Shown piece after piece: positions 1 through 34,300 of a DNA stretch of 64,000 nt. The DNA is taken from assembly GCA_965645245.1 (NCBI GenBank), contig OZ287082.1, forward strand, positions 1,054,001-1,118,000, given 5' to 3'. Source of the stretch: Massalongia carnosa. Its lineage: Eukaryota. The position numbers were made by a program, and so were the translations under genes. Position 1 is the stretch's first letter; every line of letters starts with the position of its first letter. The notes under the pieces are model-generated. The model was not told the origin of the DNA and searched no databases. It was given only the letters and a program-made list of their open reading frames with translations.

Positions 1-203
1 GATCGTCTGACTTGATTTTGAGATACAACATCATCTCACATTGCATTATCACAGATTTCAGCCTCTACTTATCCACATCATGGAAGAAAATGTATATTCC
101 TCATAATATCTTCATCTAAAGCTTTTAACTTACCTTTTTTTAGTCGATCCCGATCACGCCTAGAAAAACGAGGAGAGCGGTAAAGAAGGATATAGATAAA
201 AAG

Positions 204-13084: not shown

Positions 13085-13304
13085 AATACAGGCGAGCTGT
13101 CGGGGGTTTGTCTGCGGCGTGGAGTTCGAATAGCCCGAGGAAGAAAGAAAAGCGCGCTAGTCCCATGCGTCACTTAATCTTGGATTAAATAACCGATTAG
13201 GCCTAGTGCACCGTTCTGACGCTAAATCCAAAGTAGCTGCAGCTTGCATACTTAGCGGCAGGCTTAGGGTTGGAACATCCACTAGTCCGCATTGGGAGTT
13301 TGTA

Positions 13305-14628: not shown

Positions 14629-14794
14629 TACCCAGTTTTGATATTGGGCAGGAGTTTCGGTTATCACGCAAGTTTGATTTATTTTCGGTTTCGCAAGCAA
14701 GAGCTAGATATAGGGAGTTTGTTCGGGTTGATGGAGCATACAAGAGAAAGGGTGATAAGGTGCGCCGGCGGAAAGATGGATTTCTGACGGTTCA

Positions 14795-17700
14795 ATGCCT
14801 GGGGGGATGCCTGATTGGAGAGAAAGAGCTTTGGAGAGGGAAAGAGCGATGCCTAGGTTGCCCAACGAAAAATATCCAGGGTGGTTGATACCGAAATTCT
14901 CACGTATGGCGCGAGGAGCACGATTGACTCCAGAAAGATTGCAAAAGATTCGAGTAGGGGATGGGTTGTCCATGGAAGAGAGAGACCTTTTGGCCGAAGT
15001 CCTACACGGTAGGGAAGCTGCACTCGCTTGGGACTTTTCAGAGATGGGACTGGTCCGACCAGAAGTGGCGCCTCCGCAGGAGATCCGTACGATCGAGCAT
15101 AAGCTTTGGCAGCATCCTGGTTTCGCTATTCCAAAATCACTACAGGAGAAGACCATCGAAATGGTAAAAGAGCGCCTTGCGATCGGAGCAATAGAACCTT
15201 GCCATGGTCATTATCGCAATCCTTGGTATGTCATAGGGAAAAAGGAGAAGGGAAAATATAGGCTCATCAATGCTTGCACGGAAATGAACAGAGTTACCTT
15301 GCGGGACGCCACTTTACCTCCTATGGCGGACGATTTTGCTGAGAACTTCGCGGGATGTTCGGTAGCGTCGTTGGTGGACTGGTTTTCCGGTTATGATCAA
15401 ATTTCGCTAGACCTCAAGAGCAGAGACTATACAGCTTTTCAGACGGCACTAGGACTCATGAGGATGACTCGACTTCCTCAAGGAGCCACCAATTCCGTGG
15501 GACAATTTGTTAGGATAAATAATCAAATCCTGCAGGCTCAGATACCTCATAATGCGGAACCTTTCGTGGATGATGTGGGAGTCAAAGGGCCCAAGATAAA
15601 GTATGACAATGAAATGGTCGCCCCTGGCATCCGCCGATTTATAAAGGAACATCTTCAGGCGCTGGACGAGGTTCTAGCCGATTATGAGAGAGCTGGTGTG
15701 ACTATCTCGGGGGCAAAATCACAATTTGCCATGCCTGGGATCCGTATTGTTGGTTATATTTGTGACTATGACGGTCGACATCCGGATACTGCCAAGGTCA
15801 TAAAAATTGTTGATTGGCCTCCTTGTCAGGATGTTACCGGTGCACGAGCTTTCATCGGTGTTTGCGTGTACTATCGTATATGGATCTTTGAGTTTGCCAT
15901 CGTCGCTGAGCCTATCTACCGTCTGTTCAAAAAGAAGATCCTTTTTGTTTGGGGAGTAGAGCAACAGGAAGCCATGGATAAGCTGAAACTTGCGTTGACT
16001 ACCTCTCCGGCACTGCGGTCGCTGGATTATTCGATAGGAGCTGGGCTCATCATTTTGGGAGTGGATTCGAGTGGTAAGGGATGGGGTGCCGTCTTGATGC
16101 AGGAGTGGGAGGGCAAGCGACACCCTTCGCGATATGAAAGTGCTATTTGGTCCGACACCGAAAAGTCCTATGATGCGACGAAGAGAGAGTGTAGAGGGGT
16201 CTTGAAGGCTCTCAAGAAGGTCCGCAACTATCTTTATGGAGTACATTTCTTGTTGGAGACAGATGCTTCGGTGCTTGTGGCTCAATTAAATCGTGGAGGG
16301 ACGGATTTGCCAGGTGCGCTTGTTACCAGATGGATAGCTTGGATTCAGCTCTTCGACTTTGACGTGAAGCACGTTGCGGGTAAAAAGCATACAGCAGCAG
16401 ATGGACTGTCTCGTAAACCCCCTACCGAAGACGATATACGGGAGAGAGAGATGGAAGAAGACATAGAAGATTTTATTGATGCAGAATTAGGCTCTCTAAG
16501 AGTTGCCTCTATTTCCGTTACAGACGAACTGCCCTTAGAGGAGAGTTATTCAGAAAAATCTCAACAAATCGCTGCCTATCTTACGAGTTTACAGAGACCG
16601 GCCGGCAGAAGGAAAGAGTTTTACAAGTTCAAGAAAGAAGCGATGAGATACTGTGTGCAGGGGAGAAAGCTGTTTCGACGAAACAACAAAAATGTCCCCA
16701 TACGAAGAGTTGTAGATGACGACAAGGAGAGACAGGAGATTATGGAGAAACTACATGATGAGAGTGGTCACAAAGGGAGAGAAGGGACCTACCGTAGGAT
16801 TGCTGACCGCTACTGGTGGGATGACCTTCATGCTCATGTCAAGGCCTACGTACGAAGTTGCGAGAGATGTCAAATGCGGGACCCTACACGGCAGGAAGAA
16901 GCTCTACATCCTACCTGGATAAGTCTTTGTTGGGCCAAAGTAGGTCTGGATGTTGTGTACATGCCTTCAAGGGAGGGCAAGAAGTTCCTGGTGGCTGCTA
17001 GAGATGATCTTTCAGGCTGGGTAGAAGCTCGGGCAATAGGAAATGCCAATTCGTTGTCGGTCGCTAGGTTCCTTTGGGAAGATGTCATCTGCCGTCATGG
17101 TTGTTTTGGCCGCTTGATTGTAGATGGAGGGCCGGAAAACAAGGATTTAGTTGAAGAACTCACAGCGCGATACGGAATTAAGAGGGTCCAGGTGTCTTCT
17201 TATCACCCACAGGCCAATGGTATGATCGAGAGGGGCCATAGACCCATTGTTGATGCACTGTCCAAGATGACCGATGGAGGGTTGGGAAATTGGGTCGAGA
17301 ACCTACCCGCTGTATTATGGGCTGACCGTTCCACTGTCAAGAGTACCACCGGCTTCTCCCCATATTATGTGACCTGTGGCAGTGAACCTGTTCTACCGAT
17401 TGAGTTGGAGGTACCTACCTGGCGTATTCTTCCTTGGAGTGAGGTTCATACAACTGCCGAGCTATTAGCTATGAGAGCTCGTCAGCTTCAGAGGCGGGAG
17501 GAGGATCTTGAGGAAGCTGTGCATCATTTACAGCGCATGAGGATGGAAGGAAAAGAGGAGTTTGATGATGCGCACCTAATTAGAGCCAAAGAGCTAAAGA
17601 AAGGAGACTTAGTACTGCTCCATGACACCAAGAGAGATGCGGTGATGTCTACCTCCGTCAAACTGGCCTATCGATGGCTGGGACCATACAGGATACATGA

Positions 17701-17929
17701 AGCTAAACCCGAGAAGGGGACATACCTTCTAGCAGAATTGGACGGGACGGTCTTGGCTAACACCTTTGCGGGCAATCGGTTGAAAGAATTCCACCCCAGA
17801 CAAGACCTTACTCATATTACGACTCCGGAGCATGACACAGAAGAAGTCAACATTGATCCCAGACAGCATGCAATTCCCGAAGGTTGGCCGTTAGCGGTAG
17901 TTGTTCCTCCGATCTCCGGCATAGCATAG
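14795..17929 (+). CDS. Pol: reverse transcriptase, RNase H and integrase
   Basis: RLPQG...FVDD (RT), DSS/TD (RNase H), H-x4-H...CERC zinc finger, D...DGG...E integrase core, GPY motif. Confidence 0.95.
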   Translation: MPGGMPDWRERALERERAMPRLPNEKYPGWLIPKFSRMARGARLTPERLQKIRVGDGLSMEERDLLAEVLHGREAALAWDFSEMGLVRPEVAPPQEIRTIEHKLWQHPGFAIPKSLQEKTIEMVKERLAIGAIEPCHGHYRNPWYVIGKKEKGKYRLINACTEMNRVTLRDATLPPMADDFAENFAGCSVASLVDWFSGYDQISLDLKSRDYTAFQTALGLMRMTRLPQGATNSVGQFVRINNQILQAQIPHNAEPFVDDVGVKGPKIKYDNEMVAPGIRRFIKEHLQALDEVLADYERAGVTISGAKSQFAMPGIRIVGYICDYDGRHPDTAKVIKIVDWPPCQDVTGARAFIGVCVYYRIWIFEFAIVAEPIYRLFKKKILFVWGVEQQEAMDKLKLALTTSPALRSLDYSIGAGLIILGVDSSGKGWGAVLMQEWEGKRHPSRYESAIWSDTEKSYDATKRECRGVLKALKKVRNYLYGVHFLLETDASVLVAQLNRGGTDLPGALVTRWIAWIQLFDFDVKHVAGKKHTAADGLSRKPPTEDDIREREMEEDIEDFIDAELGSLRVASISVTDELPLEESYSEKSQQIAAYLTSLQRPAGRRKEFYKFKKEAMRYCVQGRKLFRRNNKNVPIRRVVDDDKERQEIMEKLHDESGHKGREGTYRRIADRYWWDDLHAHVKAYVRSCERCQMRDPTRQEEALHPTWISLCWAKVGLDVVYMPSREGKKFLVAARDDLSGWVEARAIGNANSLSVARFLWEDVICRHGCFGRLIVDGGPENKDLVEELTARYGIKRVQVSSYHPQANGMIERGHRPIVDALSKMTDGGLGNWVENLPAVLWADRSTVKSTTGFSPYYVTCGSEPVLPIELEVPTWRILPWSEVHTTAELLAMRARQLQRREEDLEEAVHHLQRMRMEGKEEFDDAHLIRAKELKKGDLVLLHDTKRDAVMSTSVKLAYRWLGPYRIHEAKPEKGTYLLAELDGTVLANTFAGNRLKEFHPRQDLTHITTPEHDTEEVNIDPRQHAIPEGWPLAVVVPPISGIA

Positions 17930-18209
17930 ACCGAGTGTGTGTGTGTTTCTGACTGTAGTCGTTCTTTCATGATGATTTTCCTTTGTATAAGTGAAGAAGT
18001 GAGAGTTTCCTTGGATTTGAACTTCACGTATTGACCAATTTCCTCCCTCACCTAAAGACGTAGCCATAAGAACTCCTCACGTCTTGTGTTCTCTCCTTCC
18101 TCAGCTTTCATCTTTTCATCAATCATCAGCAAAACTTTTACACCTAGTACAACTCCTCTCTTCTCATATTTACATCTGCCTTTCCATAACCTGATTGTGT
18201 GTTCCCATC

Positions 18210-18737
18210 ATGACCTTCTCTGAGTTCCAGGTGGTCAAGATACGGGCCGGGGATAGAGAGTTCCCCACCCTAGATAGTGCGATTGCCTACATGGGCACAT
18301 TACCACCACCAGTACGCCTTCAGGCACAGGAGTTAGTGGCCGGGTCGCTAGAAGAAATGGGCGCACATTTTGAGGACACTGTAGCAAAATTCTGGGACTA
18401 CTTAGAGTCCGATGGAACCATGAATGAACTGGTTACGGGGCGGAGTGGCCCGAGGGAGAGATTCGGATATGTGAAGACGGAGGCCGGGGAGTTGTGCGCC
18501 GGACACGGGGGGAAAGATACTGGGGGAAGCGAAGAGACAAGAAGAGGACGAGAGATGCGCATGCACGGCACCAGAAGAGTGGGTAGCAGACCTGGAGGGG
18601 GAGGGGGAGGGGGAATCGAGCTCCACCCGGAGTATCGAGCTCCTCTCCTTCCATCAGTATGGATCCATAGGTTTGTGTGTTCGTCACGTGAATATGCTTG
18701 CTGCCCTATTCGGACTAAAAACTCCTATCGAACCTAA
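18210..18737 (+). CDS. Extra ORF of unknown function between pol and the 3' LTR, possibly degenerate
   Basis: Protein-like N-terminal ~90 aa (MTFSEFQVVKIRAGDREFPTLDSAIAYMG...), preceded by a CT-rich leader. Confidence 0.4.
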   Translation: MTFSEFQVVKIRAGDREFPTLDSAIAYMGTLPPPVRLQAQELVAGSLEEMGAHFEDTVAKFWDYLESDGTMNELVTGRSGPRERFGYVKTEAGELCAGHGGKDTGGSEETRRGREMRMHGTRRVGSRPGGGGGGGIELHPEYRAPLLPSVWIHRFVCSSREYACCPIRTKNSYRT

Positions 18738-19410
18738 GGAACAGGTGAGGCGGTTAACAAGGTTGTGGGCAGAAAGGAAGAGAGGGGTGGACCGCTTGCG
18801 GTCCATGCCCGAGACGGACACGTGGTGAGACTTGGGAGCGCCGCCGACTGGGTGGGCGGATAGTACAGGCAGACATTGATGCCAGGGGACGGCATCAATG
18901 GGGGTCTGTGGGTGTGTGATAGGGTGAATAGGGACAAGGGCAGGTGCTGAGGGGAGGGGGGGGGATTGGTGTGGACGGAGCGGAGGGGAGGTTTTCCGGG
19001 GCTGAGGCGCCCATTTTTCTATAGATAGGGGAAGTTTCACCCTCTAGACAGACAGGCAATCAACATTTTTCTTTCCTTCAGAGTCAGTATTCGTGTCCGA
19101 GTGACAGTGTCAGAGTGGCCGAGTCGTCACCGCCAACGTTCTGTTTGTTGTTTTCACGTGTGTTCCTTGTTTGCTTTCTGCCGGTCTTCTCTCCTTGAGG
19201 TCATCACGTATGCACCACCCACGACTACCCCTCTTCAGTAGTGCCAGTGGATTCCTTCCTACAGCTACCATGTGGGGGATATCAGAAGGGCATGTTTTTA
19301 ACTGCACCAAACGGGTGATAGAAGCACTGTGTCGGCTAAAGAATGACTTCGTTCAATGGCCCAGTGAAAGAGCTAGGATAAGAGAAAGTTTGACCAGAGA
19401 CAAGATGGAT

Positions 19411-19923
19411 TTATCGGGGTTGTTGGCAAGGTGGATGGTACCGACGTTGTTCTACATACAAAACCAGGTGAGGTCTTTCGGACTCCATTATGTAGGGTGG
19501 AGTGATAGTGGGAAGATCTCCCATAATCTCTTCCCACTCGTAGTAGAAAGGGCATTTCTTAATCGAGACCTCCTTGATGGTTATTCCCCGCGTGTTTTCC
19601 GCCACTACCTCATGTTTTGTTGGATCTTACCCCCATCCCGTCTGATCCGCGAGGGCCCTGGTTTCTTTGAAAGATTTAATCATTTGGGCGACTTTATCTC
19701 TGGCTTTTTCCTTGGATACATCGGGTCGTTGAGCACTCAGTCCAGACTCCAACAGCATTCTTCTACAAGCTTCTACCTTGTTTCCTTTTTGATAGAGATT
19801 GAGATTGACGGAAATACCCTGATCGTCTCTGATACAAAGCCATTGAATGACTAGTTGAGTGTCTTCATCTTTCCAACGGATATTGTGACCTCGAGATCGA
19901 GTTGGAAGAGTGATGAACGTCAT
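19411..19923 (-). pseudogene. Harbinger Myb/SANT-like DNA-binding protein, spliced and truncated
   Basis: RWKDEDTQLVIQWL...KARDKV...TGWG, then a GTAAG intron, then KKCPFYYEWEEIMG. Convergent with the transposase inside the same TIRs. Confidence 0.75.
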
Positions 19924-20994: not shown

Positions 20995-22623
20995 ATGGCT
21001 ACCCAGTGGCCTGAAAACCGACGAACTGTATATGCTTGCCTGGTTCTTAGGGCCGCGGATTCACTTGGTTACGCCTTGATGTCAACGCCTCTTTTACAAT
21101 TACTCGAATCAGACGTGTGTCGCAATTATTATCGAGAGCACAACGATAGCATTGTTCCCCGCGATGGCTATATCTCCGACCGGTTGTGTAAAGCGGCACC
21201 AGTTCAAAGTGATATCTCATATATCAATGGAACAAATAGCATTCTAACTCTCTTGCCCAGTACGTTGACCTATGTCCCATGTTGTGCAACGTCCATGCTG
21301 ACTTGAAGGCAACGTGGGCCTTGACGTCGTTAGCCCTGATTGCGGCATTGCTTTATTTTGTACTTTGTCAGTTCGTAAATAAGAAAACAATCCTACTCGC
21401 AAACGTCACGGGCAATCTAATGATGCAAATTTACCTCATGGCTGTTTGTTCGTTACCTTCCCATTCGGCTTTCGGGCAAAATTCTGATAGGTCGTGACCA
21501 AGTGTATTTCTATAATACGGTTGATCCCCGATGGATGTGGCTCGCTGGCCTGTTCAGTTTCATTGGAGGCGGAGACTTGATCCTCAATGCTCTTCTCCAG
21601 GCCTTGATTGCCGAGACGATTCCGAACAATTCACTGTGAGTCAGAAGAGTCTCTTTTCGTGCCATCTGTCAGCACTCAACTGATTGCCACCGCAGGAGTA
21701 GCTTTTATCTGTATTCTACTGCTTCGGCCTTGATAGCTATTGTCATTGGTTCTGCAAGCAGCCTCTCCATCATGAAAACCTCACTATGGCTTCCCGTAAT
21801 TATGGGAGTTGTCATAAAATCGTTCAACATCCCGATGATCCTGTTATTCGTTGACCGAGTTGAACCCGGACGTCAGCCTGAGACAGCTGAGGATTTCCAT
21901 CTACTCACAACCCAGGATTACGACACGCAAAGTGAAACAGAAGCAGATATGAACAGACCACGTTTTCTAGCAAACCTCATCTGGCGACAGTTAACCAACT
22001 TGCGGGGTACGCTTCGTTGTTGTCTCTTCCCCCTACTAGTATGTGTTTCGCAAGAAGCCGGAAACAGTTTTCGTGGCATCCTTCCATACTGGTTGAGCAG
22101 AGAATATCAATGGAGCTTGCGCGAAACGGGCTATATCTCGTTGGGAGAAAGGCTGCTGACCGCGCTCATTATTTCTCTTCTACCTCGTCTTCCCAAATGG
22201 ATATTGTCTGGCGGTGGCGGTGGCGGTGGCGGTGGTGACGGTAAAAAAATCAAGAATGGTAGCTCAGACCTAGGCCTCGCAAGATTGTGCTTGTGCTTAG
22301 CCTGCCTAGGGACTGCATTACTGGGCTTCAGGTGGACTCGAATGTCTGCCATTTTATCTTTGGCTGTGTTAGCCACTGGGACTGGGTTCCGGGATGCGTA
22401 TCTCAGTTATGTGACTTCAAAGCTACAGAAGCATGAAATGGTGAAGGTATGCATGGCCCTCTCAATGGCACAGTTCTCGTCTATCAATTTTGGCGTTTTT
22501 GTGGTTGGGGAATTGTACGCCTTTTGTTTAAAAGTGGACCAACCATGGATGAACAGCCTTCCGATCTGGCTGTGTTCTCTGGTCTTTGCTTTTACTGTGT
22601 TCCTTCTGTGCCGCTCCGGCTAA
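20995..22623 (+). CDS. MFS transporter, UstT-like efflux pump, about 4 exons
   Basis: Multiple hydrophobic TM segments; N-terminal LLESDVCRNYY...LCKAAPVQSDI and WMWLAGLFSFIGGG motifs like those of UstT-type MFS proteins; introns at about 21260-21333, 21448-21501 and 21637-21695. Confidence 0.8.
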
Positions 22624-24084
22624 TACTGCCAGTCGGCATTTGAAATACTGATATAGTGGATATCAGCCAATGGCGTATCTACCGCCATGGAACTCAGTGC
22701 CACACGTTTGTCTCACTGCAATTGATCAACCTGATCAACAATAAGTCTGGTAGACGTCTAGAATTAAAACCACCTCTTGCGTGCCGTAAAGGGTACTCGG
22801 TCTGAATATGAGTACACACTAGACTTCACGTTGCATGTGCTGCAAGTCTTGGCCCACAGCAACATTAAACCAAGAGGCGGGATTCTTCAAAGTCGGAATC
22901 TTCGCTCCAAGTAGTGGAGCTTCATCAAGTGTGAACAGCTCATCGAAGACGCTTCACTTCCTGCTTGAAAGCGTATTTCCGCTACATTTTTATCGCACCA
23001 ACCGACGCGCTTTATGACTGCCCCGTTCTTGCAGGGAAACCGGCTTTGTAGGTACGCCGATGCAAATCGCGATGTGATCATGAGGATATCAATTAGCGTT
23101 TGTCAAGATAGCACATGAGCCAAACAGAGTGACAGAGTAATCGTGCCAATACACTAAACCCCAACCGAGCCATAGACCCTGACTCGGTTAGGGTTTAGTG
23201 TTTTGGACAACAAAGCATCCGAGTTCGGAGCGATGCTGGACGGCGAGCTCATTCAATCATGAAACCACACTACTCTGTACTTGGAAGGTCACGACGACGG
23301 ATCGGAACGGATCGGAACGGAGTCACTTCGTAGTTATCTAGGCCAAGCAAGCTTAGAAGTGGTGGGTAGAGCCATAGGTACGGAGTGTTTGTACGGAGTA
23401 CGGAGTACTCCGTACTCGAAGTGAGTGTACATACTTGTACCCCGCCTTGAAACCAGATGTAACGTATGCAGAGTCTTCACGCAGGGCGGCACGCGGAGAA
23501 GGATTTCGAGGTGACGTGCGATTCGCAGTTCGATCCGTAACGTGGTATACTGAACAGACATTCCGAGGAACGGAAATGTGAATAGCTGTCAATTTTCCGT
23601 TAACTACGATTTGGAAATCACGTCGGGTTTTGAGGTGATGCAAACTTCAGATTGCATGGTGTAGGAACTAGAATCTCAGGAATCAGTGGTTACGACGTTA
23701 GGGCAAGGTATGTGACAATGATAGGCCAGCTGACAGCACGGGAGTAAGATTTACCGATGCGCCCAACGGCATCACAAGCTTGGTGTTGGATTCGTGGCCT
23801 CCATTGGACGGGGATCGTGTCATGTTGACAGAATGGTCAAGATACACAACGCCACTGATTCAACGCTGATAGGAATCAAATTTACTATGGGTATAGATCT
23901 GCAAACTACGATTGCCACGGTGATTCGCAATGCCAGCAGAGCATGACATGAAAATCCCAGGCAGTGCGGCCAGACACTGCCTCATGTAAAATACAGAACT
24001 GAAGCCTCACTAGGGTGGATACATCAAACACATGTCATTAGCGTGCAGATCAGGAGAATTGACGGTTAGGATGCAATGCAAAAA

Positions 24085-25172
24085 CTAGTCGATCTCTTGG
24101 CCGCCGTATTTATCATCATTGATTTGATGCGCCTTAGCCCAGGTGTGGATTGCATCCATGTCACGGCATTGGACTGGTGTATCCCACATGGCAAAAGTGC
24201 CCGTTGCTCGCTCTTCAGGGGATTTCCGCAGATACTCCTCGGTGTGATGTCGAACTCCAGCTTCGTCGACGTAGCTGTAGTTGCCATTCCACCAGTAGAG
24301 CAACGAAACGTCTCCATGACACAGTAGGGACTGACGGATCATATCAAAGCAATGATCTGCGTAAATGAAAAACAATATCAGCTCATCCGTCCATCATCGA
24401 CTCTATAAAGAATGGGGGTCATGCTTACCTCGGTGAAACTCGATCTTTGCTGCAGTGTCATTCGGAAACCATCGATCCGCATGAAAAGTCCTGCGAATTC
24501 GATTTAGACAATGCATCTGGTGATAGACTCCCAGTCCGTATGGGACGAAGCCTGGATCGAGATATGCGTCGGCTGACTCCGGAAGCCCTGAACTTATCGC
24601 TTTTTCTTTCGGAATAAGGACCAAATGGTCATGTTCTGTAGCGAGTCAGGAATCGTCATGCCATACATATCATATCATCCTGGCCGATTCACGATTTCTT
24701 CGATACTTACCTCGCAACCAGCTATCCCACGCCTCATCGACCTCGGGATTGGAGGATCGGAATTCCTTCATTGGCTTATATTGGGTGTTGACGTATCGAA
24801 CGACACCGTCCTCACGCAATGGGGCTTGAAGGTGAGGATGTTAGAACTGAGCCAACGGGAAACCGTCTGCGATGAAGTTCTCGGGTACTCACAGTAAGGA
24901 GGCACAGGACTGTCACTGGAGATGCTGTTGCTTTTCTGTCGAGCCAGCGAGACGAAACCCAGAACCAAGAGTAGGCTGAATCCAGCATTCAGGCTCACCA
25001 GAACATTGAACCAGGAATCTGGGATCCATCGTTTCGAGGGTATTGCTCGAGATGATCGTCGTTCCAGAAGACCGTCCTTCTCGTAGAGATCCTCCAAGTC
25101 TTCGTTTCGTTCGTCAATGGAAGATCGGTGGGAGTTGCTCTCGCCTGGACAACGAGGTACGGTGATATTCAT
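24085..25172 (-). CDS. DUF3328 / UstYa-like oxidase (about 290 aa, 4 exons)
   Basis: Exons 25172-24893, 24824-24711, 24635-24429 and 24356-24085 join in frame with GT-AG introns. N-terminal TM helix, VDEAW, two HxxHC motifs (HQMHC, HRDHC), IRQSLLCHGD and QCRDMDAIHTWA. Confidence 0.93.
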
Positions 25173-25856
25173 GGTTATGGATCAGCTGGTCTCCTGTCTC
25201 GGGGCAAGGAGTGTTTTTGGGTCGATTGTTTATTGATACTGAAGCCGTGACTTCGGAGATTAAAGAAGGGCGTGTTCGGCTGTATTATGATAACTTACAG
25301 GATCACGTCATATGACTCAAACCTACTGAAGCCTTGGGAACTAGCGTGACAGACTGATCTTTCTGAGATGTTGATGTTCGGAATAGTAACGATCCGTGAT
25401 CGGAATGAAATTTTCAGTACATGTTACACTAACGAATCGGACGTGCTTTTCACGATGATGCTGCGGCTAATAAACCCGGCTTTGATATCAGAGCTTCCAC
25501 TGAAATCATTCTCGGCACGGTATGGACGGTATGACCCTGGTTCGTTCATTTAGTGCATGCGGTAGATCGATGGCATCATCCAACGTCTCAGCCAGCCACA
25601 GTAAGGCCTCGCTTCCGCAACACCTGCCGCAGCAAAAACTTGAAGATTAATGTATCCACCCGCAATCGGCTGAGGGGTAATGGATGATCTGGCCCGGATT
25701 GATGATCTGCTGTGGACCCTCGCCGTTATAAAAACTCTCCTAAATCTTGTCCTGATCCACTGATTAACCCTAACATAGAACCGGACAGAGAGTGAGCCGT
25801 ATAATCTCAATAACTATTTCGCCTCCATCGATTTTCTGACAATCCTGCCACTCAAC
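25173..25856. promoter_or_regulatory. Putative bidirectional promoter between the oxidase and precursor genes
   Basis: 684-bp gap between divergent start codons; TATAAAA at about 25727. Confidence 0.5.
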
Positions 25857-26414
25857 ATGCATATTGCTTCGACCCTGCCCTTTGTGGCCCTTTCATTTGC
25901 CGTTCTTGCTGCTGGCGCACCTCCGTACATCGAACAGCGCAACGACCTTTCGAAGCGTGCGAACCCTAAGTTCGACTATCCCGGAAGCCCTGATGAGGTT
26001 GCGAAGCGCGCGAACCCTAAGTTCGATTATCCCGGGAGTCCTGATGAGGTCGCGAAGCGCGCGAATCCTAAGTTTGACTATCCCGGAAGCCCTGACGAGC
26101 TCGTGAAGCGTGCAAACCCTAAGTTCGACTATCCCGGAAGCCCTGACGAGCTCGTGAAGCGTGCAAACCCTAAGTTCGACTATCCCGGAAGCCCTGATGA
26201 GGTCGCGAAGCGTGCAAACCCTAAGTTTGACTATCCCGGAAGTCCTGATGAGGTCGCGAAGCGCGCGAATCCCAAGTTCGACTATCCCGGAAGTCCTGAC
26301 GAGCTCGTGGAGCGTGCAAACCCTAAGTTCGACTATCCCGGAAGTCCTGATGAGGTCGCGAAGCGCGCAAACCCTAAGTTCGATTATCCCGGAAGCCCAG
26401 ACGAAGTCGAGTAG
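25857..26414 (+). CDS. Kex2-processed repeat protein; dikaritin RiPP precursor (UstA/GigA-like architecture)
   Basis: Signal peptide, short pro-region, and nine 17-aa (51-bp) repeats KR-ANPKFDYPGSPDE-(VA/LV/VE); adjacent to the DUF3328 gene. Confidence 0.93.
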   Translation: MHIASTLPFVALSFAVLAAGAPPYIEQRNDLSKRANPKFDYPGSPDEVAKRANPKFDYPGSPDEVAKRANPKFDYPGSPDELVKRANPKFDYPGSPDELVKRANPKFDYPGSPDEVAKRANPKFDYPGSPDEVAKRANPKFDYPGSPDELVERANPKFDYPGSPDEVAKRANPKFDYPGSPDEVE

Positions 26415-27195
26415 CTCTTCAGGCGCTTCAACTTCCAGATGCGTGATGACAGCAGCCTTGGAGAGATGGAATAGGGCGGTTAATATCACGGATATTTATT
26501 TAGTTGGAGACATAGTGTCACGCTCAGACTGGGTGCAGATAAAAATACTGGCCATCGCTCTTTACTTTACTTTCTGTAACTATTGCTCTATGTAGCTCCT
26601 GAACTGAGTCACTCATTCATATTACTCCAAACAACATGGAAAGAGCGAAAGTTCCATTAAAAACTACTGTTCGTAGAAGTCCTTTGTAGGTAGATCAACT
26701 ATTACCGTTTGAAATATAACTACGTGTTTAAATCATTAAACATAACAGTTGAAAACAAACAAGCAGAATTCTTGAATCGGGTTCAAACGATGGATGACAC
26801 TGACAAAAGAACAATTTGTTTACTAACGATTTTTTTTTTTTGGGAAAATAATTGTTTCGTTAAATCAACATCTTTCTTCGAGCGCGTTTAATCGATAAAT
26901 TTAAGCGATAACAATTACATACTGATGATGTACGGTAGCAGAATTATTATGCCATGTCTAAGTCATCACCATGGCTTCCTTGAAAAAAAAAAGGGCTGCT
27001 ACCTGGCGGTATCCTCTCGTTCTGTCTCTAATCTGTCATCTTACCTGATTATTGTGTGCTACTTCTCACCTGGACATTAGTGGAATAAAATTGAAAATTT
27101 TCAGGCTTGTCAGCCATGTGACAACGTAATAGAGCTTACATCCTCCTGGGTTGAGCCAGAAGCAAATTATTGATAAAAATGTAACAGCGGATAAC

Positions 27196-29021
27196 TTATA
27201 CTCTACGACTGGGGGGTTTATAACACTTTAGCCACCGCTTCAACGCCTGTATGAAAACCGATCGTACCTGTCTCCCGGGCTCAAAACCAGCCGTAAAGTC
27301 AGAACAATGCTGGCTATTGGGAATCACATGTCCAAATATTTTCTCTTCGCTCATCTGCACGTTGCACTCAGGAATATCCGTAGACGCCATAGCGTGATCC
27401 GTGGCCAGATTGACCGTGGAAAGCGGCGTAAGACTACGCCATGGGTCGTATTCTCCGGCAGTCCAAAAAACGTTGGACGGACGCATCCACTGTCCACCCG
27501 TCTCGTGGACGAACTGCTCCGCCCGCGGTACTCGAGGCAAATCTCCTGTTGCATCGGCGCCAGGAAACTGTCCGTAGCACAAACTCTGGTGATACTCCGG
27601 CGACAAGTATTTGGACACAATAGAATGGGGTCCGACATTTTGAACAGAGAAGTAACCCCACTCTGAGCACAGCAACCAACTCCAAGCAATCATCATAGGG
27701 TCCGACTCACGTGTCTGAGAGAGGTCACAAGACGGTGGTAGGTTGCTATCTAGTAAGCGACAATTGGTTTTGAAGTCTCGATTGATGGATTCTAGCAAAG
27801 GAGGCCAAGAAGCAAGTCGCTCTGTCAAATATTTAGGACCCCTTGTAGGGGCAAGCCCTTCATCGGACGCAGGCGTCTGAGCCTGCAGGTCTGTTTCAAG
27901 ATAGTCGCATAAAGCTGCTAGAGAGATGGCGCCGGTGCCATTGCTTTCACGCTTGGTCATGCCTTGACTCTGAAAGGAGGCATAGATGAAAGCTAGCGCA
28001 AGTGCGAAATCTCCATTGTTGTTGTCCTGTGCTCCTAGACCAGGACCTAGAAATAGTTCCTTTATCGCGGTCGCGTTATCATTCCGACTGGAGAGCTGAA
28101 GATCGATGTAGTTCATGATCTTGTGCAGATCACGGCTACAATTCCCATACCCGTAGTTCACCATTCCACGATAGACCAGGTCGAAATAGGAACTGAAGTT
28201 AATGCGCGCTTCCACAGGTGCAGACGAGGCGTATGATGCATAGAAGGTTTCCGGATACATTTGACGTGACAGAGCTGCTCGTACGCCAGAATACGAGCAT
28301 CCAATCATCACCCATGGAGTCGACTCGGGAGTTAGGTCGTGGTCTGGGAGAGACCTCCGGTGAAAAGATCGCGCAAAGTAAGGTATATCTGCTAGCGCTT
28401 GCTTGTAAGTGAGGGGCTTTAGATGCTCCCAAGGGGTTGAGAGGTTGATAGGAAAAGGTAGGGATTCCCCGAAATAGCTAGAAAGTAAATCAAAGTAAGT
28501 AAGCGCATGATGTATCTCCATTTGCAAATTGCCTCCACATACCGGTGCTCCCAAACTATTCCAATTCCATGGAATTCCTGGAGAATCTCCAGAAGATACG
28601 ATGAAGAAGTATTTAAGAAACGATGAGCAGAGCGCTCTGCATTATTCTCCCCGACATCATGCACCAAAACTGGTCCACCTGGTTGATAAAACTGATCATT
28701 GACCCAATATCGATTTTGGTAGGTCCCCAGGGACGGTTCAGTATGGTCAATGGGGAGCTGCGATTTCGGGGCGGAGTCAATTTGTGATGTCTTCTATTTG
28801 TGTCAGAAGTAATGACTTACAATCACAAACTCAGCAGGTATGGCAATGTCTGAGAGATTCTCATGCGTTAGATAGATTTGTGTACTCTCTGGACCCCGTA
28901 ATCTATTTGACCAAGGGCCATGCTGACATGCGTTGGGATGATTCTCATCAATCCAAGCTCGTGCATGAAATGAAGAAGTACAGATAATCAGAGCAAGAAG
29001 TGATATGAGAGTTAATATCAT
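27196..29021 (-). CDS. Secreted serine peptidase, family S28 (about 565 aa, 3 exons)
   Basis: Exons 29021-28821, 28757-28543 and 28477-27196 join in frame. Signal peptide, LPIDH...YQNRYWVN, WEHRYFGES, QALAD, GCSYSG (Ser), YDPW (Asp) and HCSD (His). Confidence 0.9.
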
Positions 29022-29082: not shown

Positions 29083-31390
29083 CCCTCTCGCTGGTGAATT
29101 GGCACCCTCCCGCACTAGCTGTTAGTCGCATAGTTAGTGTTAGTAAGCAAGAACATCAAAATCTGTTTACTTTCTACCTCAAAACAATCACCATTATTAT
29201 CATTAGAAAAATAAATCTCCTTACCATCAATTGCTTCAAACATCATATTATATTTTATTCAGCGTCATGGGACTAAATGAAGAAGAAATTCCGAGTGTTT
29301 CAGACAAATCCCCGTTTCAGCAAAGCAACATAGGATAAATAGCAAACGCACTGTTAAAAGCATCTTGGCTGACATTCCTCCTCCTCTTTCGAGTTACAAA
29401 CCCATTTCAATTGATGATAGACCTCCAAGATCGCTGGTGAATGGTCTTGTTGATACTTCTCTTAGATTTTTTCAGCTCTTTATTACGACTCAGCTCTGTC
29501 GGACCATCGCATATCACACGAACATCAAGGCTCACGATCATACAGAGAAAGAAAAGGAGAATAATCATCGATTGGACCAGAAATTGAGGTTTTTTTGGGC
29601 ATTCTTTTGTTTATGGGCATGGATCATGCGCCTGCCACGGAAGATTACTGGAATCAATGCCCCGACAAGCCCATTTTCCTATCTATTTCACAAGCCATGT
29701 CCCTCGTACGATTTCAACAAATCAAGAGATTCTTAAAGCTTAATAATGGACGTACAGAACCTCCGCGCATGGGCAAAGGAGTCGATTGGTGGAAGAAGTT
29801 GGAACCTCTTGCTACTGATTTTCGTCAGGCCTCGTTGAAGTACTATCAACCAGGAAGCATCATATCATTGATGAGCAGCTTATTAAGTTCGAAGGTCGAT
29901 CACGTCATACTCTACAAATAACCTCAAAGCAGGCTGGAAAGGGGTTTAATATATATAGTCTTTGTCAGAATAACTACTTGATATCTTTTTTGTTTGCCTC
30001 CAAAGTTAGTATCTTTCTAAAAAATTAAATCTCATTTTCCCTTTTTGATCTCTGAATCGTGATCTCTTTCGGACAAAATTCCATGAAACCTTGTGTTTTT
30101 GCTGTAAAAACCCTCTGTTTTCTGTCGCTTTTCCCAACATAAACTGCAATGATTAACACGTATCAGGTCACAAAAACCAGTCAGTTAAAAACCGCTAGAC
30201 AACTGGGCTTTAGCAAAGGATGGCCTTTCGGATAGTGCTTTGCTGGTAATTCAGCTTTGTAAAACACTTCCTGAACCACCCAATTACACTCTTTTCTGCA
30301 ACAACTTCTTTACCAGCACAAAGCTATTCAAAGCTCTTCGATCACTAGGAATTGCTGCATGTGGAACAGCTAAAAAAGGCTCTGGATTTCCCGCGAAGTT
30401 GTTGGCTCTGCGGGATGTGGCCAATAAATCCAAACATTGGGGACTTCGGGCCAGTACGACTGTGGATGAGGTGGTCTGTTTGGGATGGGTGGACAATAAC
30501 ACCGTTCAGTTGATGACTACTCGTCATCATCCTCGGGAGCTTGATGACTCGTACTATTTACATCCGCTTAAAAGGCATGGAATTCCAGAAGACTCCTTTC
30601 AGCCAATCATACCCATACTATACTATCCCTCAATGTACGCTCACATCATTTTGCTGCGTGATCAAACACCTTCATGGCCTTTAGGCCTACCGATTCCCGC
30701 ACCAGTCAGAGAATAAAATCTTCACATGGGTGGGCCAGATGGAAATGCTCAGCAGAGAGCAGTTTATTCTTATCAACGCCGAAGCGATCGATATTGGTGG
30801 CCAATGTTTATTTTTTTGTTAGATGCTGCTGCGCTCAATGCATACAAGCTTTATCTAATTGATGACTTCAGAACAGAAGGAAAAAAACTCACTCGTACGG
30901 ATTTTACTCATCATCTTGCCCTTAGTCTGATGAAGAATCCCGCTGGATAAACCCGACGACATGAGTCAAAGATAAGGATTCAGACCAACTCTGAGCCTTT
31001 AGTTTCTACCCCGAGCACCATTATATTCATCTGGAGAAGAAGCGGAAATGCGAGCCCTGCAATGTCAATTAAACAAGGCCCTCCAAAAGAAAAGGGGAGC
31101 CTTTGGCTGAAAGAGACGCTAATGGCAGGAAAAGAAAGCAGCGAGGTTCTCAAACAAGATGGGCGTGTGGAGGATGTCATCCAATCAGACCTTGTTGTAA
31201 AAATCAGGCCTGCTGGGCGGCAATACATTTGAACTGAAAGAAGTAGATGGAGTTCAGGTAGATAGTAATTGATTGGGCAATTCTTTAAAAGGGTCAGAAA
31301 GGGGTAGCAAGCCGCTTATTTGATTGGTAGATATTTAAGGTTTCGGGAGCTCTAAACCATCTATAGCTAGTGCGGGAGGGGGGTAATTCA
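29083..31390 (+). mobile_element. piggyBac-like transposon, degenerate, right end truncated
   Basis: TTAT|CCCTCTCG left end. Fragments with MSLVRFQQIKRF, SIDE, NFFTS, ACGT, WVDN and HMGGPD, plus a Cys-rich tail. The right inverted repeat AGCTAGTGCGGGAGGG...AATTCA lacks its last ~12 bp. Confidence 0.82.
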
Positions 31391-34300
31391 TTCAGTGCTA
31401 TAGCGCCTTCCCTTTCAAGTACATTCACTGTCGGAGAAGCATCATCCTGCATCAGGCCGAGCTCAGTCATCAATAAGCGTATCCATATGGTCTCCTTAGC
31501 AGGCAAGGTGAGTGCCATATATTCTGCTTCTGTGGATGATAGTATGACGGTTTGTTGTCTTCTGAAACACCAACTGATTGGTCCGTTGTTTAACATAAAA
31601 ACATATCCTGAGGTGGACTTGCGGTCTTCCCTGTCTCCGGCCCAGTCAGAGTCGGAATAGCCCTGTACAGACATATCTCCTCCACCAAAGGTGATACCTC
31701 TGTCTTTGGTGGCACTGAGGCACCGGAGTATGTGTTTGGCTGCTTCCATATGTGTTTTGCCTGGGTTTTTGGCATGTCGGCTAACCACTGAGGTTGCAAA
31801 GGCTATATCTGGCCGTGTCTCTATCATGGCAAACACGCTGGACCCTACTATGGCTTGATATTGCTTAATGTCTGATTCTGAGGCCTGAGATTCATTTCTG
31901 AATAGATTGCCTTCTTTCATAGGGGTGGTGGTGGATTTTGCGTTCTGCATGTGAAAATTCTCAAGGACCTTTGTAATGGATGTAGGCTGAGATAGTTTTA
32001 TTGTTTTGTTTACGCGATTCCGTTCCACTTTTAGACCCAAATAGTGACTGATTGGGCCCATGTCCACCATTTTGAAAGCGATATTAAGTTGTCTCTTGAC
32101 CTCAGAGATCATTGATGACCCCTTGGGTCCTATGATGTTCAGGTCATCCACGAAGGAGGTGACAATGGGACCTTCGATGCCTGCTGGAGAGGCAAAGATG
32201 CTATGATCTGCATGAAGTTTCGACAGACCCAGCTTGATGAGTAGAAAATTTGATGAACGTTCATACCACAGACGAGGAGATTGTTGTGTTCCTTGTCCAT
32301 GGAGTAACCCCAATTGTCTGAATGAGAACATTTCATGGCCTGATTGTATGTCTGTGGTTCAGCAACGTCGAGATGGGACAGTGCATCATAGTCCTGCAGT
32401 CCTGAAGATCCTTCTTTCTCTAGAGTTCTGGCTAAAAGTACAAGTGGGTCCTCTGCATGTCTGTCTTGAGATGTATGGACATGGTCTGGTTCAACTAAAG
32501 CTTTGTCGGAGAGCAGAGACAATATGTGCTTCACATGAATATGCTTTCTGGATCTACCTCGTCCACGTTTAGGGGTTGAAGTGGGAGGTGAAATGACAAC
32601 TGGTTCTGATAGGATGTTTGTATCGGGTGCCATGATGGCATCATACGTAGGAACGTTGGTCTGGTCTTTGGAGATGGCGATTTCATGAATGCGCAGATCT
32701 TTGACCCTGATGACCCTGCAGTCCTTTTCCGAGAAAACCCGATAAATGGTGCATCCGTCATATCCACATAGAATGCCACGCTGGGCCCGAGGTGAGAATT
32801 TGACCGATTTGCTATTTGCTCCTACTTGTTCTTCTCTATGAACGAGATCTCTATGAACGAGAACATATACAGTAGATCCCAAAACTCTCAGATGATCTAA
32901 AGAAGGTGGCTTTGAGTCATAAATTTCAAAGGGACTCTTTCCAGATAAAGCGTTTGTAGGTCTGACGTTCTTGGTATGAACCATAACTAGAACTACCTCT
33001 GTCCATAAATAGTCCGGAATGCCTCCTTCGATGATGGTACACCTGGTCATGTTCATGATGGTCCTGCCAGTTGTTTCGGACACTCCGTTCTGTTCCTGTG
33101 AATGTGGTGCGGAGGGTTCAAACGTTATCCCTTCCTTCAGAAACCAGTCGTCCGATTTCAGACTTCGGAGTTCGGTGCCATAGTCGGTGCGAAAGACGCT
33201 CATTGGTTTGCTCTTTCCTAGTTCACAGGATGGACAGTACCAATCCTTGCTGACATTGTCCGAGTAAGGTACATCGAGTCGCTTTAGATAAGTGCGACAA
33301 TCAGTTATATTCAGATGACCAAGACGTGCATGCCATGTTGTCAAGTCCGCTCTGTTAGATGTATGATAAACAGCGGTCTTGGGCCCTTGAAAAGTTTGAT
33401 TGTCTATCTGTGTGAGACGTACTAGTACAGCCACTTCTGGGGTATCCAAGATCTTCACTATGAAGTTGGTGTTGACTCTTGGGACATACCCTATGACCCT
33501 TCCACTGGATTGGAGGAATAGGGTCCAGTTCAGATTGTCATAGTAAATGTCATGACGATTGAGTAGTACCAGGCTGATAAGGTTCACTGGACACTGTGGA
33601 ATGAGCAGTACGTTGTGTAAGATTAACACTGACGAGGGTGAGTCGTCCTGTAGTGCCAACGTTCTCTCGATAACTCCCCTCCCTGGAGACATTCCTTCCG
33701 AAGTAGATCCCGCCAGACCTGTTGGACGTACTACATAATCAATAAAAGATGATCTGTGATTACATACGTGCATGTCTACGGCGCTATCAAGGAGCCAGGT
33801 GTCTCGGTCTAAGTTTGTCATGGCCATGACTTTCTGTAATACTGTGGTCATGACCAGTGTGAGACAACTGTTCAGTGTAGGGGGTTCTGTGGCCGAAGAG
33901 TTTGGAACAGCCGTTGTTTCTGGCTTGGAGGACTTGGCCCTTTTGGCCCTCCCTGAATCAGCTACGTCTCTCGCTCTCTTCAGATGAGGAAACTTCTGAA
34001 AGCACTCATTTGGCCAGTGGCGAGTTCTATTCCTTGCTACGCACTCTGGAACAGTACAACTTCCTATAGGTGCTCTGCCTCTGTTGGATGAAGTGCTAGT
34101 GTTAGTGTGAAGGGCCTTGACGTCTGTGTTGTTGGTCTTTGTGGTTTCTGAGAGACTTGTGGTGTCATGTGTCCAGTCCCTGCGGAGTTGTGCAATGAGT
34201 GGATCATACTTGTCTGTAGTGTTACCAAGTAGCATGCCCTGTAGCACAAACTCTATGGAGGTTATGTTCACCTTGGCTCCATCGACCAACATGCCCTTGA

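What the first reader, a model, noticed from the sequence alone, without database searches (positions are those of the whole stretch)
20995..29021. Compact, apparently intact dikaritin-type RiPP cluster with an unfamiliar core peptide
Seen in sequence: four adjacent genes with plausible splice models, namely an MFS transporter, a DUF3328 oxidase with both HxxHC motifs, a signal-peptide precursor with nine repeats of ANPKFDYPGSPDE, and an S28 peptidase. Established: a Kex2-processed repeat precursor plus a DUF3328/UstYa oxidase is the dikaritin architecture (ustiloxin, phomopsin, asperipin-2a, victorin, epichloecyclin), often with a UstT-like transporter. Inference: the locus makes a Tyr-crosslinked cyclic peptide. 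The core matches none of the characterised cores I recall (YAIG/YVIG, YVIPID, FYYTGY, GLKLAF).
Basis: partly seen in the sequence, partly recalled or inferred. Interest (0 to 1): 0.92.

Follow-up and report, generated by a model that had tools for sequence, protein, structure and literature searches.

The report
Small fungal ribosomal-peptide gene cluster
A fungal gene for a secreted protein carrying nine identical copies of a 13-residue peptide sits head-to-head with a copper oxidase of the type that cyclises fungal peptide toxins, so it is a credible but so far ordinary candidate for an undescribed modified peptide.

Summary
The described sequence features are real. The intronless precursor (25857-26414) has a hydrophobic N-terminus and nine copies of ANPKFDYPGSPDE separated by KR spacers. 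All 10 variable sites in the core codons are synonymous, which indicates selection on the peptide. It is transcribed divergently, across 684 bp, from a 290-aa UstYa/DUF3328 gene with one membrane helix and both HxxHC motifs; that splice model matches annotated homologues.

The S28 peptidase model (565 aa) is also sound, and its nearest solved structure is the Aspergillus niger prolyl endoprotease. However, it looks like a widely conserved resident gene, so its role in the pathway is unproven. The transporter call is weak: no Pfam hit, one awkward 43-nt intron, support only from 12 hydrophobic segments and a language-model look-alike search.

Transposons bound the four genes on both sides. Only four close precursor relatives were found, all unnamed, and the core string appears in no paper searched.

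The best reading is a minimal dikaritin-class (asperipin-like) RiPP locus with an uncharacterised core. Surveys already list about 1,750 such precursor/DUF3328 pairs, so this is a new member of a known kind. No expression or product data exist. Interest is about 0.4, not 0.92.

The parts
20995..22623 (+). Putative 12-helix transporter (MFS-like). Best open model is 483 aa, with exons 20995-21259, 21334-21447, 21491-21635 and 21696-22623.
   Evidence: The ESM Atlas nearest clusters are fungal MFS, score 0.98. The model has 12 hydrophobic segments arranged 6+6. Pfam gave 0 families at E up to 10. Intron 2 would be only 43 nt with a weak GTTCGT donor, and intron 1 needs the second AG. The model is not verified by homologues or RNA.
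22203..22246 (+). GGT/GGC microsatellite encoding a Gly9 run in the central loop of the transporter.
   Evidence: Read directly from the sequence. Contigs of the DNA runs break here.
24085..25172 (-). UstYa/DUF3328 oxidase gene, 290 aa. Exons are 25172-24893, 24824-24711, 24635-24429 and 24356-24085 (stop included).
   Evidence: Pfam PF11807 on two exon pieces. Splice model. One hydrophobic helix at residues 57-75, HQMHC at 170 and HRDHC at 199; 62% identity over 236 aa to the Xylogone sp. protein P0003. The exon junctions read as in P0003.
25173..25856 (.). 684-bp divergent promoter region shared by the oxidase and the precursor. TATAAAA lies at 25727, 130 nt upstream of the precursor ATG.
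   Evidence: Coordinates of the two start codons; TATA match.
25857..26414 (+). Intronless precursor gene, 185 aa: hydrophobic N-terminus, a pro-region ending in KR, and nine core units.
   Evidence: Hydrophobic segment at residues 7-21.
25959..26411 (+). Nine 51-nt units, each ANPKFDYPGSPDE plus a spacer: VAKR x5, LVKR x2, LVER x1, and a terminal VE.
27196..29021 (-). S28 serine peptidase gene, 565 aa. Exons are 29021-28821, 28757-28543 and 28477-27196 (stop included). It has an N-terminal hydrophobic signal-like segment.
   Evidence: Pfam PF05577. Best solved structure is the A. niger prolyl endoprotease 8b57, E 2.7e-26, with GCSYSG, YDPWR and HCSD aligned to its GGSYSG, YDPWR and HCSD. Splice model. 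The exon 1/2 junction reads like the Endocarpon pusillum protein P0050.

Best explanation
The precursor and the UstYa oxidase form a two-gene core of a dikaritin-class fungal RiPP pathway, most like the minimal asperipin-2a type.

Proposed pathway (inferred except where noted):
1. The precursor enters the secretory pathway through its N-terminal signal sequence.
2. A Golgi Kex2-type protease cuts after the KR pairs and releases up to nine copies of ANPKFDYPGSPDE with short tails.
3. The membrane-anchored, lumen-facing UstYa protein oxidises the peptide. By analogy with CctR and AprY it would be a binuclear copper, O2-dependent enzyme whose two HxxHC motifs bind the metal.
4. The most likely reaction is an ether cross-link from the single Tyr to a beta-carbon of a neighbouring residue. 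Phe two residues upstream is the best-placed partner, because Gly two residues downstream has no beta-carbon.
5. Flanking residues are then trimmed and the product is exported.

Shown here: the sequence features, selection on the peptide, and the domain identities. The neighbouring S28 peptidase (possibly cutting after the three invariant prolines) and the transporter may take part, but this is not shown.
For: Precursor features: nine identical cores with KR spacers.

Selection on the peptide: 10 of 10 variable core sites are synonymous, and 134 of 134 differing core codon pairs are synonymous, against 64 of 85 non-synonymous in the spacer.

Conservation across relatives: the core NP[KR]FDYPGSPDE is kept in three other unnamed precursors, P0001, P0015 and P0018.

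Oxidase identity: UstYa Pfam hits above cut-off. The architecture of one membrane helix plus HxxHC(x)nHxxHC is the one shown for the copper enzyme CctR and reported for AprY (PMC12435403, abstract and passages).

Linkage of the two genes: they are head-to-head across 684 bp. In Umemura's survey, DUF3328 genes peak at the position next to Kex2-repeat genes, and Tyr is enriched in such repeats (65.6% against 38.2%) (PMC7329392, section 7).

Precedent and a distant relative: asperipin-2a needs only a precursor, one UstYa homologue, a transporter and a reductase, and has ether links between Tyr side chains and beta-carbons (PMC6514808, passages). The distant precursor relative P0024 (Periconia macrospinosa PVI04002.1) is listed as a Kex2-repeat protein with DUF3328 nearby.

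No rival substrate source: none of 23 ORFs of 130 aa or more elsewhere in the window has an NRPS or other biosynthetic domain, and most are transposon genes. The 16 further ORFs scanned between and beside the cluster genes had 0 Pfam families.
Against: - There is no product, expression or co-expression evidence of any kind.
- DUF3328 enzymes also hydroxylate, halogenate, isomerise and desaturate (PMC12435403), so a cross-link is only one option. The oxidase could not be placed on a tree with characterised members.
- No tyrosinase or methyltransferase is present, so the original five-gene definition of Ding et al. is not met.
- The S28 gene has an 81% match in Endocarpon pusillum and about 50% matches across many Eurotiomycetes that are not known to carry this precursor. 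The oxidase's nearest named relatives lie elsewhere (Xylogone, Aspergillus). This fits a resident neighbour better than a pathway gene.
- The transporter has no Pfam support and an awkward splice model.
- No k-mer of 8 or more bases is shared by all three promoter regions, and the four shared 7-mers match the shuffle mean of 3.8.
- One of the nine junctions is ER, not KR.
Confidence: 0.62

Rival explanations
1. The precursor is an ordinary Kex2-processed repeat protein that yields linear, unmodified secreted peptides (signal, hormone-like or defence peptides). The neighbouring oxidase has another substrate or none.
For: 78% of the 7,878 surveyed Kex2-repeat proteins have no DUF3328 gene nearby, and many give linear peptides (PMC7329392, abstract and section 7). 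The ESM Atlas places yeast alpha-factor precursors among the nearer clusters, but only at 0.82, which is a lead at best. Selection on the peptide fits a linear bioactive peptide equally well.
Against: The oxidase is the immediate, divergently transcribed neighbour. No other candidate substrate gene lies in the 64-kb window. Mating-factor genes are almost never accompanied by DUF3328 genes (PMC7329392, abstract), and the core does not resemble them.
Confidence: 0.15
2. The oxidase does modify the peptide, but by a reaction other than a Tyr ether macrocycle, for example hydroxylation, desaturation or halogenation of an unactivated C-H.
For: DUF3328 members catalyse hydroxylation (CctR), halogenation (ApnU) and other reactions besides cyclisation (PMC12435403, passages).
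Against: All characterised DUF3328 enzymes that sit next to a Kex2-repeat precursor and are cited in the papers read form Tyr or aryl ether rings (PMC6514808; PMC9233826). The core has a single invariant Tyr with Phe two residues away.
Confidence: 0.15
3. The locus is a silent or decaying remnant stranded in a transposon-rich region, and no product is made.
For: Transposons flank the locus on both sides: Ty3/gypsy, Tc1/mariner, piggyBac and copia. A high-copy short repeat lies between the transporter and the oxidase. The transporter model is doubtful. No cluster-specific regulator is present. A relative's precursor, P0002, has decayed cores.
Against: The precursor, oxidase and peptidase reading frames are all open with canonical splice sites. 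The core codons show purifying selection. RIP-type composition indices are unremarkable across the locus.
Confidence: 0.08

Closest known systems
Asperipin-2a cluster of Aspergillus flavus (aprA, aprY, aprT, aprR)
   Same: It is a four-gene minimal locus with a Kex2-repeat precursor, a single UstYa/DUF3328 enzyme and a transporter, and no tyrosinase or methyltransferase. Its product has ether links between Tyr side chains and beta-carbons (PMC6514808, passages). The Phe-x-Tyr spacing in this core would allow a similar ring; this is inference.
   Different: The cores differ: FYYTGY there, against a 13-residue, acidic, Pro-rich unit with one Tyr here. No AprR-type reductase is present; an S28 peptidase is the fourth gene instead. 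Direct sequence comparison with AprY was not possible with the tools.
Ustiloxin and phomopsin clusters (UstA/UstYa/UstYb/UstQ; PhomA/PhomQ/PhomM/PhomYa-e)
   Same: They have a signal peptide, KR-separated repeats, DUF3328 enzymes with HxxHC motifs, and a Tyr as the cross-linking residue (PMC6514808; PMC9233826).
   Different: Those clusters carry a tyrosinase, a methyltransferase, several DUF3328 copies and S41 peptidases, and their Tyr is linked to Ile at i+2. Here there is one DUF3328 gene, none of those accessory genes, and Gly at i+2.
Amatoxin and borosin processing by prolyl oligopeptidases (POPB, OphP; family S9)
   Same: This resembles only the speculative part of the reading, in which a Pro-specific serine peptidase encoded beside the precursor cuts after conserved prolines flanking the core (PMC9233826, passages).
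   Different: The peptidase family differs (S28, not S9), and no macrolactam logic is implied. Cluster membership of the S28 gene is unproven.
Aspergillus niger prolyl endoprotease (S28; PDB 8b57, 7wab)
   Same: It is the best solved-structure match of the peptidase here, E 2.7e-26 over residues 54-471 of the query. The motifs around the putative Ser, Asp and His are aligned.
   Different: Similarity is only moderate. The closest homologues are generic 'serine peptidase, family S28' proteins of Eurotiomycetes. Endo- versus exo-peptidase activity cannot be read from the sequence.

Membership tests
Dikaritin-class RiPP cluster (current definition: Kex2-repeat precursor plus a DUF3328 enzyme with two HxxHC motifs) | Precursor with an N-terminal secretion signal | tested here: met
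   A hydrophobic segment at residues 7-21 follows Met-His. No dedicated signal-peptide predictor was available, so this rests on hydropathy and on the conserved N-termini of the relatives.
Dikaritin-class RiPP cluster (current definition: Kex2-repeat precursor plus a DUF3328 enzyme with two HxxHC motifs) | Tandemly repeated core separated by dibasic Kex2 sites | tested here: met
   Nine units; 8 of 9 are preceded by KR and one junction is ER.
Dikaritin-class RiPP cluster (current definition: Kex2-repeat precursor plus a DUF3328 enzyme with two HxxHC motifs) | Adjacent UstYa/DUF3328 protein with both HxxHC motifs | tested here: met
   PF11807 at 46 and 38 bits. HQMHC at 170 and HRDHC at 199. 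The gene starts 684 bp from the precursor start.
Dikaritin-class RiPP cluster (current definition: Kex2-repeat precursor plus a DUF3328 enzyme with two HxxHC motifs) | Oxidatively cross-linked peptide product | not testable with these tools
   This needs expression and mass spectrometry.
Dikaritin cluster in the original five-gene sense (Ding et al., as quoted in PMC12048977) | Tyrosinase, methyltransferase and multiple DUF3328 genes | tested here: not met
   None of the 23 ORFs of 130 aa or more elsewhere in the window, nor the 16 further ORFs scanned between and beside the cluster genes, hits such a domain. Only one DUF3328 gene was found.
Asperipin-2a-type minimal cluster | Precursor, one UstYa homologue, a transporter and an AprR-type reductase | tested here: not met
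   The first two are present and the transporter is probable, but no reductase domain lies in the window.
Peptidase family S28 | Pfam PF05577 above cut-off, and conserved motifs around the Ser, Asp and His | tested here: met
   116.8 bits against a cut-off of 25. GCSYSG, YDPWR and HCSD align with the A. niger enzyme. That these motifs hold the catalytic triad is recalled, not tested.
Major facilitator superfamily | Match to the MFS_1 profile | tested here: not met
   0 Pfam families for any exon piece at E up to 10. No PDB sequence match below E 0.5.
Major facilitator superfamily | Twelve membrane helices in a 6+6 arrangement with a central loop | tested here: inconclusive
   The 483-aa model has 12 hydropathy peaks arranged 6+6, and the Atlas points to MFS at 0.98. 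The splice model is unverified, and the single-sequence fold was unusable at pLDDT 40.

The most novel reading that the evidence does not exclude
The S28 peptidase is a dedicated post-proline trimming enzyme of this pathway. The three invariant prolines in NP|KFDYP|GSP|DE mark its cut sites, so the mature product would be a cross-linked KFDYP-type pentapeptide. That would be the first S28 protease assigned to fungal RiPP maturation. It would also answer, for one pathway, the open question of which proteases remove the residues flanking dikaritin cores.
Probability: 0.2. Interest if true: 0.6.

Novelty: new member of a known kind. Interest (0 to 1): 0.4.

Why it matters
If expressed, the locus would give a new dikaritin-type peptide from an unusually clean two-to-four-gene unit, which is easy to move into a host such as Aspergillus oryzae. 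The peptidase's nearest named relative comes from the lichen fungus Endocarpon pusillum. If the organism is lichen-forming, the locus would also show a clear multi-core precursor in that group, where a recent survey of two UstY-containing cluster families found no repeated precursor (PMC12048977). The proteases that trim the flanks of dikaritin cores were still unknown as of the 2019 review PMC6514808. A Pro-specific peptidase next to a core with three invariant prolines is therefore a testable lead. Many similar uncharacterised loci are already catalogued, so the finding is a candidate rather than a surprise.

Tried and rejected
RNA evidence: no RNA holder was listed among the 6 runs returned, of which 4 hold the DNA. 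Laying 4 runs gave only DNA contigs and no information on splicing or expression. The second organism's contigs were identical pieces at low depth, not a diverged relative.

Comparative loci: the scan of JGI metagenome contigs with the precursor alignment gave 1 confirmed locus out of 68 pattern matches. That locus, L001, is a bacterial contig with a chance NPRFDYP string. No whole genome is held for the window, and the tool that fetches contigs for proteins is closed. I therefore could not test whether relatives keep the same four genes together.

Oxidase relatives: I searched only proteins of 157 aa or longer with the last exon. Exon-sized gene calls from close relatives would have been missed. 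The apparent lack of a close oxidase homologue in Endocarpon-like fungi rests on annotated full-length proteins only.

Transporter: Pfam at E 10 gave nothing and PDB phmmer gave nothing below E 0.5. The single-sequence AlphaFold2 model had pLDDT 40.3 and I did not search with it.

Spurious hit: the Pfam DUF2795 hit on the precursor (E 4.3e-07, with 0 stretches passing on their own) comes from repeats of a 15-residue match. I discarded it.

Promoters: no k-mer of 8 or more bases is shared by all three promoter regions, and the four shared 7-mers match the shuffle mean of 3.8.

RIP indices: unremarkable across the locus.

Literature:
- The core string and four sub-strings were found in 0 papers.
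- 'DUF3328' + 'S28' + 'RiPP' gave 1 paper, on bacterial biarylitides. I saw only its listing, and it appears unrelated.
- A search on 'UstYa' alone mostly returned author-name matches.
- Ding et al. 2016 is not held. Nagano et al. 2016 and Ye et al. 2019 are known to me only through reviews.
- Supplements of Umemura 2020 (3 files held) and Le Marquer 2019 (4 files held) lack the motif. Umemura's Table S2 holds accessions, not sequences, so this is weak evidence.

Earlier notes of this scan: nothing found by place, sequence or words.

Other: the ESM Atlas search on the precursor had low recognition (1402) and gave only leads. I could not place the oxidase on a tree with AprY, UstYa/b, PhomYa-e, VicYb or CctR, because no tool supplied those sequences.


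Full report
**What is in the sequence**

The window is fungal DNA rich in transposons. Outside the locus, 14 of 23 ORFs of 130 aa or more carry retrotransposon or DNA-transposon domains.
- A Ty3/gypsy element with 253-bp terminal repeats at 98% identity spans about 9566-19237. A Tc1/mariner transposase lies within it.
- piggyBac-like and copia-like genes begin at 29281.
- The four genes at 20995-29021 are therefore an 8-kb island bounded by mobile elements.
- The 16 further ORFs scanned between and just upstream of the cluster genes have no Pfam family.

**The precursor**

The ORF at 25857-26414 (+) has no intron. It encodes 185 aa: a hydrophobic N-terminus (residues 7-21), a short pro-region ending in KR, and nine units of ANPKFDYPGSPDE.
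- Tandem Repeats Finder reports period 51, 9.0 copies, 88% matches and score 680.
- The spacers are VAKR (5), LVKR (2) and LVER (1), and the last unit ends VE-stop. Eight cores follow a KR pair and one follows ER.
- The nine DNA copies are not identical. Ten of the 39 core positions vary, all at third codon positions and all synonymous. All 134 differing core codon pairs are synonymous, while 64 of 85 differing spacer codon pairs change the amino acid.
- Only 23 of 117 possible single changes in the core are synonymous. The naive probability of ten synonymous out of ten is about 9e-8.
- The peptide sequence, and not just the DNA repeat, is therefore under selection.

**The oxidase**

On the minus strand, starting 684 bp from the precursor ATG, a four-exon model gives a 290-aa protein (exons 25172-24893, 24824-24711, 24635-24429, 24356-24085; introns of 68, 75 and 72 nt).
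- Two exon pieces hit Pfam UstYa (PF11807) at 46 and 38 bits against a cut-off of 25.
- The model has one hydrophobic helix (57-75), HQMHC at 170 and HRDHC at 199.
- It is 62% identical over 236 aa to an annotated 289-aa protein of Xylogone sp. PMI_703, and 56% and 53% identical to proteins of Aspergillus versicolor and A. spinulosporus.
- The three exon junctions read the same way as in those proteins, so the model is sound.
- The layout is a disordered N-terminus, one membrane helix and a C-terminal domain with HxxHC(x)nHxxHC. This is the layout shown for CctR, a dimeric binuclear-copper, O2-dependent enzyme. That paper also reports that the cyclase AprY behaves likewise (PMC12435403, abstract and passages).

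**The peptidase**

A three-exon model (29021-28821, 28757-28543, 28477-27196) gives 565 aa with a hydrophobic N-terminus.
- Pfam Peptidase_S28 scores 116.8 bits.
- The best solved structure is the Aspergillus niger prolyl endoprotease (8b57, E 2.7e-26; 7wab, E 6.5e-26). GCSYSG, YDPWR and HCSD align with the corresponding motifs. That these hold the catalytic triad is my recollection.
- The first junction is confirmed by the Endocarpon pusillum protein P0050, which reads ...AIPAEL-AN-LPIDH... where this model reads ...AIPAEF-VI-LPIDH....
- Of 160 homologues at E 1e-10 or better, 120 were listed. After the window's own protein, the closest are unnamed at 92-83% identity. E. pusillum follows at 81% and one further protein at 73%. 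There is then a step down to about 50% for 'serine peptidase, family S28' proteins of many Penicillium, Aspergillus, Coccidioides, Trichophyton and other Eurotiomycetes.
- This profile looks like a conserved resident gene. It also suggests, without proving, that the source is a Verrucariales or allied fungus.

**The transporter**

This is the weakest part of the observation.
- No exon piece hits any Pfam family, even at E 10.
- PDB sequences give nothing below E 0.5, and a single-sequence fold was unusable (pLDDT 40.3).
- The ESM Atlas places the 308-aa last exon next to fungal MFS clusters at 0.98.
- The best fully open model has exons 20995-21259, 21334-21447, 21491-21635 and 21696-22623. 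It gives 483 aa with 12 hydropathy peaks in a 6+6 pattern.
- That model needs the second AG after the branch site for intron 1. It also needs a 43-nt intron 2 with a GTTCGT donor.
- A transporter is probable. Its intactness, and any likeness to UstT, remain untested.

**Relatives of the precursor**

A word-indexed search of 5.8 billion proteins, limited to 101-324 residues, found two relatives. A full HMMER pass over 1.84 billion representatives found 34 hits at E 0.001 or better, most of them unrelated repeat proteins.

Four are true relatives, all unnamed ENA or Logan records:
- P0015 has three cores, TNP[KR]FDYPGSPDE.
- P0018 has two good cores and one decayed core.
- P0001 has two cores identical to those here.
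- P0002 has decayed cores.

NP[KR]FDYPGSPDE is invariant in the good copies. The window's own precursor is not in the 15-billion-protein collection.

A more distant hit, P0024 (E 2.3e-07), is Periconia macrospinosa PVI04002.1. It has units such as TNIYPGVKYPGDADDIAKR. Umemura's Table S2 lists it as a stand-alone Kex2-repeat protein with a DUF3328 gene nearby. The shared YPG...D[DE][IV]AKR tail hints that the C-terminal half of the unit is a recognition element. This is only a lead.

**How it most likely works**

The pairing of a Kex2-repeat precursor with an adjacent UstYa enzyme is the defining signature of dikaritin-class RiPPs (PMC12048977, passages; PMC9233826, passages).
- In Umemura's survey, DUF3328 genes peak at the position next to the precursor gene, and Tyr is enriched in such repeats (PMC7329392, section 7).
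- The nearest architecture is the asperipin-2a cluster: precursor, one UstYa homologue, transporter and reductase. There the single enzyme makes ether links between Tyr side chains and beta-carbons (PMC6514808, passages).
- Here the single Tyr has Phe at i-2 and Gly at i+2, so a Phe-Asp-Tyr ring is the most natural guess.

The steps are all inferred: secretion, Kex2 cleavage, copper-dependent oxidation in the Golgi or vacuolar lumen, then trimming and export.

The three invariant prolines and the neighbouring S28 peptidase suggest trimming after Pro. The proteases that trim dikaritin cores were unknown as of the 2019 review (PMC6514808). The peptidase's broad phylogenetic distribution argues that it may simply be a neighbour. 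I put this at about 0.2.

**What argues against, and what is missing**

- There are no RNA data and no comparative loci.
- No shared promoter motif was found.
- No phylogeny with characterised DUF3328 enzymes could be made.
- DUF3328 enzymes also catalyse other reactions.
- No tyrosinase, methyltransferase or regulator is present.
- One junction is ER rather than KR.
- A relative's precursor has decayed (P0002), which shows that the family can be lost.

**Novelty and verdict**

The core string is absent from the full text of the library (0 papers). It is also absent from the held supplements of two surveys, though those tables mostly hold no sequences. Several key papers were not held.

The core therefore appears undescribed and the family is rare. 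The kind of system is well known, however, and about 1,750 similar precursor/DUF3328 pairs are already catalogued.

My verdict is a new member of a known kind:
- Interest is about 0.4.

Noticed in passing
window 9566-19237: A Ty3/gypsy-type LTR retrotransposon with 253-bp terminal direct repeats at 98% identity. It has a 960-aa gag/protease ORF and a 1056-aa pol ORF, and a Tc1/mariner transposase ORF lies on the opposite strand at 13462-14250.
   Followed up: partly
window 23092-23365: A short high-copy repeat between the transporter and the oxidase. Summed contig depth is about 42,600 against about 800 for the flanks in run X1, and many contigs end or diverge at 23135-23206. Nearby are TACGGAGTACTCCGTA-type palindromes. 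It may be a MITE.
   Followed up: no
window 52402-57428: A second Ty3/gypsy element that looks intact, with a 1283-aa pol ORF (RT, RNase H, integrase and chromodomain) and a 425-aa gag ORF with a zinc knuckle.
   Followed up: no
window 29281-34802: piggyBac-like transposase fragments (29281-30716), followed by a copia-type element on the minus strand (31294-34802). These form the right-hand boundary of the gene island.
   Followed up: no
window 19105-19854: A 249-aa ORF without a Pfam hit, just left of the island. By eye it resembles the N-terminal part of a PIF/Harbinger transposase. This is recalled, not tested.
   Followed up: partly
protein P0024 (Periconia macrospinosa PVI04002.1): A distant relative of the precursor with units TNIYPGVKYPGDADDIAKR. 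Umemura 2020 lists it as a Kex2-repeat protein with DUF3328 nearby. It shares the YPG...D[DE][IV]AKR tail with the window's units.
   Followed up: partly
window 144-2837 and 58681-59403: The only non-transposon host-like ORFs outside the island: an SNF2-family helicase piece and a protein-kinase piece.
   Followed up: no
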